DNA of 64,000 nucleotides from the human T2T-CHM13v2.0 reference genome, Homo sapiens, in the NCBI RefSeq assembly GCF_009914755.1, contig NC_060927.1; one strand, written 5' to 3'. The position numbers and the translations under genes are program-made. Under the pieces are notes generated by a model. The model did no database searches. It was not told the origin of the DNA and saw nothing but the letters and a program-made list of their open reading frames with translations. Of this stretch, positions 37,550 to 56,637 are shown one piece after another (within the stretch, counting starts at the first letter, position 1; each line of letters opens with the position of its first letter).

Positions 37550-40500
37550 TCAATTCCCACCTATGAGTGAGAATATGCGGTGTTTGGTTTTTTGTTCTTG
37601 CGATAGTTTACTGAGAATGATGGTTTCCAATTTCATCCATGTCCCTACAAAGGACATGAACTCATCATTTTTTATGGCTGCATAGTATTCCATGGTGTAT
37701 ATGTGCCACATTTTCTTAATCCAGTCTATCATTGTTGGACATTTGGGTTGGTTCCAAGTCTTTGCTATTGTGAATAATGCCGCAATAAACATACGTGTGC
37801 ATGTGTCTTTATAGCAGCATGATTTATAGTCATTTGGGTATATACCCAGTAATGGGATGGCTGGGTCAAATGGTATTTCTAGTTCTAGATCCCTGAGGAA
37901 TCACCACACTGACTTCCACAATGGTTGAACTAGTTTACAGTCCCACCAACAGTGTAAAAGTGTTCCTATTTCTCCACATCCTCTCCAGCACCTGTTGTTT
38001 CCTGACTTTTTAATGATTGCCATTCTAACTGGTGTGAGATGATATCTCATAGTGGTTTTGATTTGCATTTCTCTGATGGCCAGTGATGATGAGCATTTTT
38101 TCATGTGTTTTTTGGCTGCATAAATGTCTTCTTTTGAGAAGTGTCTGTTCATGTCCTTCGCCCACTTTTTGATGGGGTTGTTTGTTTTTTTCTTGTAAAT
38201 TTGTTTGAGTTCATTGTAGATTCTGGATATTAGCCCTTTGTCAGATGAGTAGGTTGCGAAAATTTTCTCCCATGTTGTAGGTTGCCTGTTCACTCTGATG
38301 GTAGTTTCTTTTGCTGTGCAGAAGCTCTTTAGTTTAATTAGATCCCATTTGTCAATTTTGGCTTTTGTTGCCATTGCTTTTGGTGTTTTGGACATGAAGT
38401 CCTTGCCCACGCCTATGTCCTGAATGGTAATGCCTAGGTTTTCTTCTAGGGTTTTTATGGTTTTAGGTCTAACGTTTAAATCTTTAATCCATCTTGAATT
38501 GATTTTTGTATAAGGTGTAAGGAAGGGATCCAGTTTCAGCTTTCTACATATGGCTAGCCAGTTTTCCCAGCACCATTGATTAAATAGGGAATCCTTTCCC
38601 CATTGCTTGTTTTTCTCAGGTTTGTCAAAGATCAGATAGTTGTAGATATGCGGCATTATTTCTGAGGGCTCTGTTCTGTTCCATTGATCTATATCTCTGT
38701 TTTGGTACCAGTACCATGCTGTTTTGGTTACTGTAGCCTTGTAGTATAGTTTGAAGTCAGGTAGTGTGATGCCTCCAGCTTTGTTCTTTTGGCTTAGGAT
38801 TGACTTGGCGATGCAGGCTCTTTTTTGGTTCCATATGAACTTTAAAGTAGTTTTTTCCAATTCTGTGAAGAAAGTCATTGGTAGCTTGATGGGGATGGCA
38901 TTGAATCTGTAAATTACCTTGGGCAGTATGGCCATTTTCACGATATTGATTCTTCCTACCCATGAGCATGGAATGTTCTTCCATTTGTTTGTATCCTCTT
39001 TTATTTCCTTGAGCAGTGGTTTGTAGTTCTCCTTGAAGAGGTCCTTCACATCCCTTGTAAGTTGGATTCCTAGGTATTTTATTCTCTTTGAAGCAATTGT
39101 GAATGGGAGTTCACTCATGATTTGGCTCTCTGTTTGTCTGTTGTTAGTGTATAAGAATGCTTGTGATTTTTGTACATTGATTTTGTATCCTGAGACTTTG
39201 CTGAAGTTGCTTATCAGCTTAAGGAGATTTTGGGCTGAGACGATGGGGTTTTCTAGATAAACAATCATGTCGTCTGCAAACAGGGACAATTTGACTTCCT
39301 CTTTTCCTAATTGAATGCCCTTTATTTCCTTCTCCTGCCTGATTGCCCTGGCCAGAACTTCCAACACTATGTTGAATAGGAGTGGTGAGAGAGGGCATCC
39401 CTGTCTTGTGCCAGTTTTCAAAGGGAATGCTTCCAGTTTTTGCCCATTCAGTATGATATTGGCTGTGGGTTTGTCATAGATAGCTCTTATTATTTTGAAA
39501 TACGTCCCATCAATACCTAATTTATTGAGAGTTTTTAGCATGAAGGGTTGTTGAATTTTGTCAAAGGCTTTTTCTGCATCTATTGAGATAATCATGTGGT
39601 TTTTGTCTTTGGCTCTGTTTATATGCTGGATTACAGTTATTGATTTGCGTATATTGAACCAGCCTTGCATCCCAGGGATGAAGCCCACTTGATCATGGTG
39701 GATAAGCTTTTTGATGTGCTGCTGGATTCAGTTTGCCAGTATTTTATTGAGGATTTTTGCATCAATGTTCATCAAGGATATTGGTCTAAAATTCTCTTTT
39801 TTGGTTGTGTCTCTGCCCGGCTTTGGTATCAGAATGATGCTGGCCTCATAAAATGAGTTAGGGAGGATTCCCTCTTTTTCTATTGATTGGAATAGTTTCA
39901 GAAGGAATGGTACCAACTCCTCCTTGTACCTCTGGTAGAATTCAGCTGTGAATCCATCTGGTCCTGGACTCTTTTTGGTTGGTAAACTATTGATTATTGC
40001 CACAATTTCAGATCCTGTTATTGGTCTATTCAGAGATTCAACTTCTTCCTGGTTTAGTCTTGGGAGAGTGTATGTGTCGAGGAATGTATCCATTTCTTCT
40101 AGATTTTCTAGTTTATTTGCGTAGAGGTGTTTGTAGTATTCTCTGATGGTAGTTTGTATTTCTGTGGGATCGGTGGTGATATCCCCTTTATCATTTTCTA
40201 ATGTGTCTATTTGATTCTTCTCTCTTTTTTTCTTTATTAGTCTTGCTAGCGGTCTATCAATTTTGTTGATCCTTTCAAAAAACCAGCTCCTGGATTCATT
40301 GATTTTTTGAAGGGTTTTTTGTGTCTCTATTTCCTTCAGTTCTGCTCTGATTTTAGTTATTTCTTGCCTTCTGCTAGCTTTTGAATGTGTTTGCTCTTGC
40401 TTTTCTAGTTCTTTTAATTGTGATGTTAGGGTGTCAATTTTGGATCTTTCCTGCTTTCTCTTGTAGGCATTTAGTGCTATAAATTTCCCTCTACACACTG

Positions 40501-41377
40501 CTTTGAATGCGTCCCAGAGATTCTGGTATGTGGTATCTTTGTTCTTGTTGGTTTCAAAGAACATCTTTATTTCTGCCTTCATTTCGTTATGTACCCAGTA
40601 GTCATTCAGGAGCAGGTTGTTCAGTTTCCATGTAGTTGAGCGGCTTTGAGTGAGATTCTTAATCCTGAGTTCTAGTTTGATTGCACTGTGGTCTGAGAGA
40701 TAGTTTGTTATAATTTCTGTTCTTTTACATTTGCTGAGGAGAGCTTTACTTCCAACTATGTGGTCAATTTTGGAATAGGTGTGGTGTGGTGTTGAAAAAA
40801 ATGTATATTCTGTTGATTTGGGGTGGAGAGTTCTGTAGATGTCTATTAGGTCCGCTTGGTGCAGAGCTGAGTTCAATTCCTGGGTATCCTTGTTGACTTT
40901 CTGTCTCGTTGATCTGTCTAATGTTGACAGTGGGGTGTTAAAGTCTCCCATTATTAATGTGTGGGAGTCTAAGTCTCTTTGTAGGTCACTCAGGACTTGC
41001 TTTATGAATCTGGGTGCTCCTGTATTGGGTGCATAAATATTTAGGCTAGTTAGCTCCTCTTGTTGAATTGATCCCTTTACCATTATGTAATGGCCTTCTT
41101 TGTCTCTTTTGATCTTTGTTGGTTTAAAGTCTGTTTTATCAGAGACTAGGATTGCAACCCCTGCCTTTTTTTGTTTTCCATTGGCTTGGTAGATCTTCCT
41201 CCATCCTTTTATTTTGAGCCTATGTGTGTCTCTGCATATGAGATGGGTTTCCTGAATACAGCTCACTGATGGGTCTTGACTCTTTATCCAACTTGCCAGT
41301 CTGTGTCTTTTAATTGCAGAATTTAGTCCATTTATATTTAAAGTTAATATTGTTATGTGTGAATTTGATCCTGTCAT
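37550..41377 (-). pseudogene. L1 ORF2, full span (1275 codons, frame preserved), nonsense at R550 and R1159
   Basis: ORF-track pieces are in one frame. TGA at 39728-39730 and 37901-37903 where the neighbouring intact L1 has CGA. Confidence 0.96.
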
Positions 41378-55735: not shown

Positions 55736-56637
55736 CTTTGTGGTTTTATCTACTTTTGGTCTTTGATGATGGTGATGTACAGATGGGTTTTCGGTGTAGA
55801 TGTCCTTTCTGGTTGTTAGTTTTCCTTCTAACAGACAGGACCCTCAGCTGCAGGTCTGTTGGAATACCCTGCCGTGTGAGGTGTCAGTGTGCCCCTGCTG
55901 GGGGGTGCCTCCCATTTAGGCTGCTCGGGGGTCAGGAGTCAGGGACCCACTTGAGGAGGCAGTCTGCCCGTTCTCAGATCTCCAGCTGCGTGCTGGGAGA
56001 ACCACTGCTCTCTTCAAAGCTGTCAGACAGGGACACTTAAGTCTGCAGAGGTTACTGCTGTCTTTTTGTTTGTCTGTGCCCTGCCCCCAGAGGTGGAGCC
56101 TACAGAGGCAGGCAGGCCTCCTTGAGCTGTGGTGGGCTCCACCCAGTTCGAGCTTCCCGGCTGCTTTGTTTACCTAAGCAAGCCTGGGCAATGGTGGGCG
56201 CCCCTCCCCCAGCCTCGTTGCCGCCTTGCAGTTTGATCTCAGACTGCTGTGCTAGCAATCAGCGAGATTCCGTGGGCGTAGGACCCTCTCAGCCAGGTGT
56301 GGGATATAGTCTCGTGGTGCGCCGTTTCTTAAGCCGGTCTGAAAAGCGCAATATTCGGGTGGGAGTGACCCGATTTTCCAGGTGCGTTCGTCACCCCTTT
56401 CTTTGACTCGGAAAGGGAACTCCCTGACCCCTTGCGCTTCCCAGGTGAGGCAATGCCTCGCCCTGCTTAGGCTCGCGCACGGTGCGCACACACACTGGCC
56501 TGCGCCCACTGTCTGGCACTCCCTAGTGAGATGAACCCGGTACCTCAGATGGAAATGCAGAAATCACCGTCTTCTGCGTCGCTCACGCTGGGAGCTGTAG
56601 ACTGGAGCTGTTCCTATTCGGCCATCTTGGCTCCTCC
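55736..56637. promoter_or_regulatory. L1 5'UTR CpG-rich internal sense and antisense promoter
   Basis: Established L1 5'UTR function; YY1 site CAAGATGGCC at ~56620-56630. Equivalent region at 42458-43363. Confidence 0.85.
56191..56406 (+). CDS. L1 antisense ORF0 (71 aa), open
   Basis: MVGAPPPASLPPCSL...FSRCVRHPFL*. Confidence 0.75.
   Translation: MVGAPPPASLPPCSLISDCCASNQRDSVGVGPSQPGVGYSLVVRRFLSRSEKRNIRVGVTRFSRCVRHPFL

What the first reader, a model, noticed from the sequence alone, without database searches (positions are those of the whole stretch)
38578..56290. Two L1s of different subfamilies share scattered non-consensus variants: possible inter-L1 gene conversion
Seen: the elements have separate TSDs and differ at subfamily markers (ACG/A vs ACA/G, 5'UTR G deletion, IMSE/IMGE, NVRP/NVKP, TKAK/TKDK, EFMS/EFIS). 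They nevertheless share three changes at exactly matching offsets (13,278 bp): 38578/51856 (ORF2 FNQW, residue 934), 39916-7/53194-5 (silent, ccaactcc) and 43012/56290 (5'UTR ctctcagcc). Recalled L1HS consensus has FNKW, ccagttcc and ctctgagcc; the older 5'UTR at ~15221 in this window also has the consensus base at the third site. Inference: independent recurrence at three sites is unlikely, so short conversion tracts between neighbours could be editing a potentially active L1 from a dead copy, or the reverse.
Basis: partly seen in the sequence, partly recalled or inferred. Interest (0 to 1): 0.8.

Follow-up and report, generated by a model that had tools for sequence, protein, structure and literature searches.

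The report
Neighbouring L1s exchanged short sequence patches
Two separately inserted L1 retrotransposons lying 13 kb apart share rare base changes that no other young L1 in this genome combines, most simply because short stretches were copied from the older broken copy into the younger intact one.

Summary
Two full-length L1s on the minus strand have different target-site duplications and unrelated flanks. A (37314-43363) is non-Ta with a broken ORF2. B (50610-56638) is Ta-like with both ORFs open. They differ at 85 positions.

Both carry three rare alleles. Exact-word counts over the whole assembly give 77 carriers against 11,736 for the ORF2 codon 934 allele, 50 for the silent GT pair and 14 for the 5'UTR GA pair. 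Only A and B carry more than one.

GA marks A's own non-Ta sub-lineage: all 12 other carriers are non-Ta, and B is the only Ta copy. A's relative L028 is one step from GT, whereas Ta copies are two steps away. So two patches point from A to B, with tracts of at most 92 and 213 bp. The direction of the third patch (at most 255 bp) is open.

Best reading: short-tract non-allelic gene conversion between neighbours. This is a known process, so this is a new instance rather than a new kind. Assembly cross-talk could not be tested.

One thing remains unexplained. The codon-934 allele is strongly clustered by region among independent L1 insertions of different ages, including at least 10 others on chr3 between 17.6 and 28.0 Mb.

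The parts
37314..43363 (-). L1 copy A: full length, non-Ta (3'UTR ACG...A type). ORF1 is open (338 aa). ORF2 is interrupted by in-frame stops at codons 550 and 1159.
   Evidence: It differs from every fetched L1 by 71-88 positions. Its nearest relatives are L025, L026, L028 and L037.
50610..56638 (-). L1 copy B: full length, Ta-like. ORF1 (338 aa) and ORF2 (1275 aa) are both open.
   Evidence: It lies 32-44 differences from the 24 best whole-element matches and carries their allele at the diagnostic columns.
43364..43377 (-). Target-site duplication of A, 5' copy (TAAAAGACATCAGT). The 3' copy is at 37300-37313.
56639..56649 (-). Target-site duplication of B, 5' copy (AAGAAAACAAA). The 3' copy is at 50599-50609.
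56236..56327 (-). Largest possible tract in B around site 3. The converted bases are 56289-56290 (GA instead of the Ta CG). The matching stretch in A is 42958-43049, with the bases at 43011-43012.
   Evidence: B keeps Ta alleles at L1 positions 313 and 406, where A has its lineage alleles. There are 14 carriers genome-wide and the other 12 are all non-Ta.
53009..53221 (-). Largest possible tract in B around site 2. The converted bases are 53194-53195 (GAG TTG instead of GAA CTG, silent, ORF2 codons 487-488). The matching stretch in A is 39731-39943, with the bases at 39916-39917.
51748..52002 (-). Largest possible tract in B around site 1. Base 51856 changes ORF2 codon 934 from AAA to CAA (K to Q). 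The matching stretch in A is 38470-38724, with the base at 38578. Direction unknown.
55376..55376 (-). Ambiguous fourth shared allele (L1 position 1265, G). The matching base in A is 42098.
   Evidence: It is also present in Ta copy L005, in L026, L028 and L037, and in the older element L100. The adjacent base differs between A and B.

Best explanation
After B (a Ta L1) inserted 7.2 kb from the older L1 copy A, in the same orientation, the two 98.6%-identical copies paired ectopically at least once. Short stretches of heteroduplex were then repaired without crossing over, which is non-allelic gene conversion.

At least two patches were copied from A into B. One is the 5'UTR GA pair, in a tract of at most 92 bp. 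The other is the silent ORF2 GT pair, in a tract of at most 213 bp. A third patch, of at most 255 bp, carries the K934Q codon and moved in an unknown direction.

Shown here: the rarity of the alleles, their exclusive co-occurrence in these two neighbours, the independent insertion of the two copies, and the lineage of each allele. Inferred: the pairing and repair mechanism, and whether there were several short events or one long heteroduplex repaired in patches.
For: 1. The insertions are independent. They have different target-site duplications, and homology stops at the L1 ends.

2. The alleles are rare. Whole-assembly exact-word counts give 77 places against 11,736 for site 1, 50 for site 2 and 14 for site 3. 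Only A and B appear in more than one list.

3. Site 3 points from A to B. All 12 other GA carriers (L025, L026, L028, L037, L080-L087) have the non-Ta C at L1 position 704, and most have A's lineage alleles at 153 and 313. All 24 Ta-like copies have CG. B has GA flanked by Ta alleles at 313 and 406.

4. Site 2 points from A to B. A's near relative L028 shares 3350A, 3419T and 3446G with A, so A is one transition from GT. Of the 24 Ta copies, 23 have AC. B keeps Ta alleles at 3419 and 3633. The 12 sampled out of the 48 other carriers are all old L1PA, differing from A at 32-55 of about 690 positions.

5. A control within the Ta group. B uniquely carries A's allele at 4 columns (351, 352, 3447, 4785). 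Among the 24 other Ta copies, 21 carry none and 3 carry one.

6. Older L1 fragments in the window do not carry these alleles.

7. The distance and identity fit what reviews report for conversion between transposable elements. For Alu, rates are elevated within about 10 kb, and old-to-young replacement has been seen (PMC6598467 and PMC8230782, passages read).
Against: 1. No second assembly, read data or orthologous copy could be examined. The pre-conversion state of B is therefore inferred, not observed, and assembly cross-talk is not excluded.

2. A simple panel test is weak. 8 of 861 sequence pairs share 2 or more alleles found in no other panel member, including A with the unrelated L038, at positions that look like CpG transitions.

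3. In the unique-sharing test, B scores as high with A's relatives L028 (5 columns) and L025 (4) as with A (4). The extra columns are 37, 172, 253 and 1898. 172T and 253A also occur in an unrelated older element, L100. 172T occurs in four more older copies. Some of B's rare alleles are therefore recurrent or of other origin.

4. The site-1 allele is regionally common among older L1s near the window, so A and B could each have acquired it without exchanging it with each other.

5. About 40 private alleles of A were not transferred. Any exchange touched only a small part of the element.

6. 36 of the 48 other site-2 carriers and 52 of the 75 other site-1 carriers were not fetched. A young carrier among them cannot be excluded, although none lies among the 24 best whole-element matches of A or of B.
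Confidence: 0.75

Rival explanations
1. Assembly or polishing cross-talk: a few bases of one L1 copy were written into the other when the assembly consensus was made, so the shared alleles are not in the real DNA.
For: Scattered single-site identity between two nearby 98.6%-identical repeats is what mis-assigned reads would produce.
Against: The copies still differ at 85 positions spread over the whole length, including sites 27 to 147 bp from the shared ones. Cross-talk would have to have hit only alleles that are rare genome-wide. From general knowledge, not tested here, long reads span a 6-kb repeat and anchor in the unique flanks.
Confidence: 0.06
2. Recombination before insertion: B's source element or its RNA/cDNA was already a mosaic carrying patches from A's lineage, and B landed next to A by chance.
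For: Recombinant full-length L1s exist. A 2026 preprint removed 35 high-confidence or probable recombinants out of 2,267 site consensus sequences (PMC13192797, methods passages read). GA is carried by 12 other copies that could have served as donors.
Against: The site-1 allele and the T of site 2 are absent from all 16 fetched relatives of A, so they are private to A itself and not to its lineage. No other element in the assembly combines any two of the alleles. A chance landing within 15 kb of one of 13 lineage members has a probability of the order of 1 in 10,000 (my estimate).
Confidence: 0.05
3. Independent recurrent mutation: the same changes arose separately in A and B.
For: Recurrence is real at some sites. 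172T, 253A and several CpG positions are shared between B and unrelated copies. The site-1 allele occurs in several subfamilies and is seven times as frequent as a control A-to-C variant, at 77 carriers against 11.
Against: Two of the three sites are matches of two adjacent bases, and neither of those changes is a simple CpG transition pair. B has only about 13-17 other private substitutions, so the expected number of coincidences with A's roughly 90 differences from Ta is about 0.1 (my estimate). Observed are three separate events covering five bases. Only these two neighbours combine the alleles.
Confidence: 0.04
4. A regional, site-specific process supplied the site-1 allele to A and B separately. 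It might be long-range biased conversion from older neighbours or a local mutational bias. Under this reading only sites 2 and 3 reflect an A-B exchange.
For: At least 10 further carriers lie on chr3 between 17.6 and 28.0 Mb. The four nearest, at 26.48-26.92 Mb, are older independent insertions. 39 of the 100 listed carriers have another carrier within 150 kb, against about 1.6% expected.
Against: A and B are identical across the whole 255-bp stretch around the site and carry none of the older-subfamily alleles that lie 73-98 bp away in the neighbours. Transfer from those neighbours would therefore need a very short tract. The chr3 carriers show no excess of other shared alleles: 3 observed against a null mean of 4.5.
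Confidence: 0.1

Closest known systems
Non-allelic (interlocus) gene conversion between neighbouring transposable elements, best documented for Alu
   Same: Two independent insertions of one repeat family, close together and highly identical. They share non-diagnostic variants in short patches while keeping their own flanks and subfamily markers. An old inactive copy acts as donor to a young one. The reviews PMC6598467 and PMC8230782 (passages read) describe the distance dependence (about 10 kb) and old-to-young replacement for Alu.
   Different: Here the partners are 6-kb L1s, 13.3 kb apart start to start. The patches are at most 92-255 bp, scattered over 4.4 kb. One patch changes an amino acid in an open ORF2. 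No ancestral state from another species was available, unlike in the Alu studies.
Recombinant or mosaic full-length L1 elements, and repair of breaks in L1 by conversion from other L1 copies
   Same: Sequence passes between L1 lineages. The 2026 pangenome preprint PMC13192797 screens for recombinant L1s. Repair of a break in a LINE by conversion from endogenous LINEs in mouse cells is cited in PMC1920257, with tracts as small as 13 bp. I recall, without having checked here, reports of Ta/pre-Ta mosaics in surveys of human Ta and pre-Ta elements.
   Different: Those recombinants are block mosaics detectable by breakpoint tests. The patches here involve one or two informative bases each and would escape such screens. 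Here the likely donor can also be named, because it lies next door.

Membership tests
Non-allelic gene conversion between dispersed repeats | The two sequences are paralogous copies at distinct loci, not one duplicated segment | tested here: met
   The target-site duplications differ, and homology is confined to the L1 bodies.
Non-allelic gene conversion between dispersed repeats | The acceptor carries donor-lineage variants in a patch bounded on both sides by its own lineage's variants | tested here: met
   B has GA between Ta alleles at L1 positions 313 and 406, and GT between Ta alleles at 3419 and 3633.
Non-allelic gene conversion between dispersed repeats | The shared variants cannot be explained by descent or by common recurrence | tested here: met
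   There are 77, 50 and 14 carriers genome-wide, and only A and B carry more than one allele. Of the 24 other Ta copies, 21 carry no A-specific allele and 3 carry one. Caveat: site 1 alone is regionally frequent.
Non-allelic gene conversion between dispersed repeats | No exchange of flanking markers (no crossover) | tested here: met
   Each copy keeps its own subfamily alleles on both sides of every patch and its own target-site duplication pair.
Non-allelic gene conversion between dispersed repeats | The pre-conversion state of the acceptor is observed in an orthologue or an unconverted haplotype | not testable with these tools
   Only this one human assembly was available. No ape genomes or other human haplotypes were held.
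Non-allelic gene conversion between dispersed repeats | Transfer is one-way, with the donor unchanged | tested here: inconclusive
   A shows no Ta allele at any diagnostic column, which fits one-way transfer. The direction at site 1 is unknown. An apparent swap at L1 position 253 was dropped after an unrelated element was found with the same allele.
L1 Ta subfamily (copy B) | Ta-type alleles at the columns that separate the Ta-like panel from the non-Ta panel. The names of the markers (ACA/G, 5'UTR G deletion) are recalled, not taken from a call. | tested here: met
   B matches the 24 best whole-element hits at the diagnostic columns, except 352, 3336, 5105 and 5534. The last three also vary within the panel.

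The most novel reading that the evidence does not exclude
The A-B exchange may be the youngest step of something larger. The ORF2 codon-934 A-to-C change also destroys the only AATAAA hexamer in that 724-bp stretch. It has spread, or recurred, among independent L1 insertions of several subfamilies within the same chromosomal neighbourhoods: chr3 17.6-28.0 Mb, chr4 106.8-107.6 Mb, chr6 85.6-85.85 Mb, chr12 86.75-86.84 Mb and others. There is no general homogenisation of the surrounding sequence. That pattern would call for a site-specific, distance-dependent drive acting on dispersed L1s over hundreds of kilobases, such as strongly biased conversion or local re-insertion of one lineage. I did not find such a process described in print in five full-text searches.
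Probability: 0.2. Interest if true: 0.8.

Novelty: new member of a known kind. Interest (0 to 1): 0.55.

Why it matters
This is a clean, locatable case in which a broken L1 appears to have rewritten bases of a neighbouring L1 with open reading frames, possibly including one amino acid (K934Q, direction not established). The donor, the maximum tract lengths and, for two patches, the direction can all be stated.

Three consequences follow:
- Private variants of young L1s are not always mutations of that copy or its source. This affects source-lineage tracing and age estimates based on private substitutions.
- Tracts this short, with one or two informative bases each, would escape breakpoint-based recombinant screens.
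- The regional clustering of the codon-934 allele, if it holds up, would make long-range sequence exchange among dispersed L1s directly measurable in complete genomes.

Tried and rejected
1. Reciprocal swap at L1 position 253. B has A there, and A has G, unlike its four closest relatives. I dropped the idea because the allele has 7 carriers, including an unrelated older element, L100, which also has 172T, 1265G and 1408G. The order of mutations in A's lineage also allows A never to have had it.

2. Segmental duplication as the cause of the site-1 clusters. I rejected it for the three clusters tested. The 3' flanks are unrelated beyond the L1 end at chr3 26.48-26.92 Mb (4 elements), chr12 (2) and chr6 (2). 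The chr4, chr11 and chr17 clusters were not tested. One site-2 pair on chr8 differs at only 5 of 690 positions and looks like a duplicate.

3. A single C-bearing lineage as the cause of the clusters. Carriers fall in several parts of a tree built from 724-bp pieces. Only the chr6 and chr12 pairs are sisters.

4. General regional homogenisation. There is no excess of exclusively shared alleles among the nine older chr3 carriers: 3 observed against a null mean of 4.5, P = 0.76.

5. A motif-wide A-to-C process. That stretch contains only one AATAAA, and carriers show no general excess of A-to-C changes.

6. An internal template for the site-1 change. Only 8-base matches occur elsewhere in the element.

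7. Older L1 fragments in the window as donors. They do not carry the alleles.

8. The panel test of alleles shared by only two sequences. It is too weak on its own.

Short pieces were fetched instead where possible.

One of those searches was lost to a mistyped pattern.
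Full report
**What is there**

The window holds two full-length L1 elements on the minus strand. A self-comparison finds one long match, 37313-43360 against 50591-56637, at 98.63% identity, and no homology in the flanks.

Copy A (body 37314-43363) is bounded by a 14-bp duplication, TAAAAGACATCAGT. 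Copy B (body 50610-56638) is bounded by a different 11-bp duplication, AAGAAAACAAA. They are therefore independent insertions in the same orientation, offset by 13,278 bp, with 7.2 kb between them.

A has an open ORF1, and its ORF2 is interrupted by in-frame stops at codons 550 and 1159. B has open reading frames of 338 and 1275 residues. The two copies differ by 85 substitutions and one 1-bp indel.

**The three shared positions**

- Site 1 (38578/51856) changes ORF2 codon 934 from AAA to CAA, giving FNQW.
- Site 2 (39916-7/53194-5) turns GAA CTG into GAG TTG. It is silent by codon position.
- Site 3 (43011-2/56289-90) is GA in both copies.

**How rare are the alleles?**

The own-genome pattern search counts every exact occurrence.
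- Site-1 word with C: 77 places. With A: 11,736 places. A shorter 15-base core with C gives 110.
- Site-2 word: 50 places.
- Site-3 word: 14 places.

I compared the three lists by eye. No element other than A and B appears in two of them.

One caveat applies. Exact words under-count carriers in old subfamilies, whose surrounding sequence has drifted. They are reliable for young copies, which share the context of A and B.

**Relatives**

The best whole-element matches were listed for B and for A. Each search scored 25 of roughly 14,000 candidates. I fetched 24 Ta-like copies (L001-L024) and 16 of the 19 further matches of A (L025-L040).

B lies 32-44 differences from the Ta-like set. A lies 71-88 from everything, so it carries many private changes. 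None of the 40 copies has C at site 1 or T at the second base of site 2.

**Site 3**

All 24 Ta-like copies have CG. Twelve of the 16 non-Ta copies have CA. Four (L025, L026, L028, L037), which are A's closest relatives, have GA.

I fetched 631-bp pieces of the other eight genome-wide carriers (L080-L087). All 12 carriers other than A and B have the non-Ta C at L1 position 704. Ten of them also have A's lineage allele at 313.

GA is therefore the marker of a small non-Ta sub-lineage to which A belongs by descent. B is the only Ta-type copy in the assembly that has it. In B it sits between Ta alleles at 313 and 406. The transferred stretch is thus at most 92 bp, and the direction is from A's lineage into B.

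**Site 2**

A's near relative L028 shares 3350A, 3419T and 3446G with A, so A needed one more transition to reach GT. Of the 24 Ta-like copies, 23 have AC and would need two changes.

B keeps Ta alleles at 3419 and 3633, which limits the tract to 213 bp. Of the 48 other carriers I sampled 12. All are old L1PA copies, differing from A at 32-55 of about 690 positions. The other 36 were not examined.

**Site 1**

The identical stretch is at most 255 bp, bounded by a private allele of B at L1 position 4638 and a diagnostic difference at 4894. Nothing fixes the direction.

**Controls, and results that cut against the reading**

- Within the Ta group, B uniquely carries A's allele at four columns. 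Of the 24 other copies, 21 carry none and 3 carry one.
- The same test gives B five unique columns with L028 and four with L025. The extra columns are 37, 172, 253 and 1898. Positions 37 and 1898 are CpG transitions.
- 253A has 7 carriers genome-wide and 172T also has 7. One element, on chr5 at 171.63 Mb, has both. It proved to be an unrelated older copy, 162 differences from B. The four other 172T carriers are also older copies.
- Some of B's rare alleles are therefore recurrent or older-type states. The apparent reciprocal swap at position 253 was abandoned.
- A plain count of alleles shared by only two panel sequences is not discriminating. 8 of 861 pairs reach two, including A with L038.
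- The case for A as B's partner thus rests on two things: sites 1 and 2, which are private to A among young copies, and adjacency.
- Older L1 fragments in the window do not carry the alleles.

**Mechanism**

Non-allelic gene conversion is the simplest account. Two direct repeats lie 13 kb apart at 98.6% identity. Short patches of donor sequence sit inside otherwise unchanged acceptor sequence, and no flanking markers have been exchanged. About 40 private alleles of A were not transferred.

Either several short events occurred, or one long heteroduplex was repaired in patches. The data do not separate these two possibilities.

The process is known. Reviews describe it for Alu, with a distance dependence of about 10 kb and old copies overwriting young ones (PMC6598467 and PMC8230782, passages read). 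Repair of a break in a LINE from other LINEs is cited in PMC1920257. A 2026 preprint screens out recombinant full-length L1s (PMC13192797, methods passages). The case is therefore a new instance of a known kind.

Assembly cross-talk, a recombinant source element and independent recurrence remain as rivals. I rate them at 0.06, 0.05 and 0.04.

**An unexpected side result**

The site-1 allele is strongly clustered along chromosomes.
- Of the 100 listed places of the 15-base core, 39 have another carrier within 150 kb. About 1.6% would be expected from the local density of the common allele on chr1p.
- Twelve of the listed places lie on chr3 between 17.6 and 28.0 Mb, including A and B.
- I fetched 724-bp pieces of 23 of the 75 other carriers from the 24-base list, plus 12 random copies with the common allele. 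Three of the random pieces were truncated or disrupted and were dropped.
- All 23 carriers are older than A and B, differing from A at 14-64 of about 723 positions. They fall in several parts of the tree.
- In the three clusters tested (chr3 26.48-26.92 Mb, chr12, chr6), the 3' flanks are unrelated beyond the L1 end. These are independent insertions, not duplicated segments.
- The chr3 carriers share no excess of other alleles.
- A control A-to-C variant private to A has 11 carriers, none clustered.
- The change removes the only AATAAA in that stretch.

I have no tested explanation for this clustering. It weakens site 1 as evidence for a specific A-B exchange, and it is the most novel lead in the window.

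**Verdict**

The regional clustering of the codon-934 allele deserves its own follow-up.

Noticed in passing
window 38578 and 51856; G000 C3:17.6-28.0 Mb, C4:106.84-107.63 Mb, C6:85.59-85.85 Mb, C12:86.75-86.84 Mb and others: The rare ORF2 codon-934 C allele is regionally clustered among independent L1 insertions of different subfamilies. 39 of the 100 listed carriers have another carrier within 150 kb. Flanks in the three clusters tested are unrelated.
   Followed up: partly
window 38575-38580 and 51853-51858 (sense-strand AATCAA): The site-1 change destroys the only canonical AATAAA hexamer in the surrounding 724 bp of ORF2. Whether that matters is unknown.
   Followed up: no
window 42497-43101: The RefSeq 'enhancer' feature given by the hub lies inside the 5'UTR of copy A and includes site 3 (43011-43012).
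   Followed up: no
L091/L092 (G000 C4:59.18 and 59.20 Mb); L096/L097 (C8:100.18 and 100.21 Mb): Other local pairs carry the site-2 GT allele. The chr4 pair are old L1s 17 kb apart that differ at 48 of 690 positions. The chr8 pair differ at only 5 and look like a duplicated segment.
   Followed up: partly
L100 (G000 C5:171624200-171630400): An older L1, 162 differences from B, shares four of B's otherwise rare alleles: 172T, 253A, 1265G and 1408G. These may be older-type states. How B came to have them is unexplained.
   Followed up: partly
window 55376-55377 and 42098-42099: At L1 positions 1264-1265 most copies read CA, B reads CG and A reads TG. This fits a CpG state in A's lineage that later decayed in A.
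   Followed up: no
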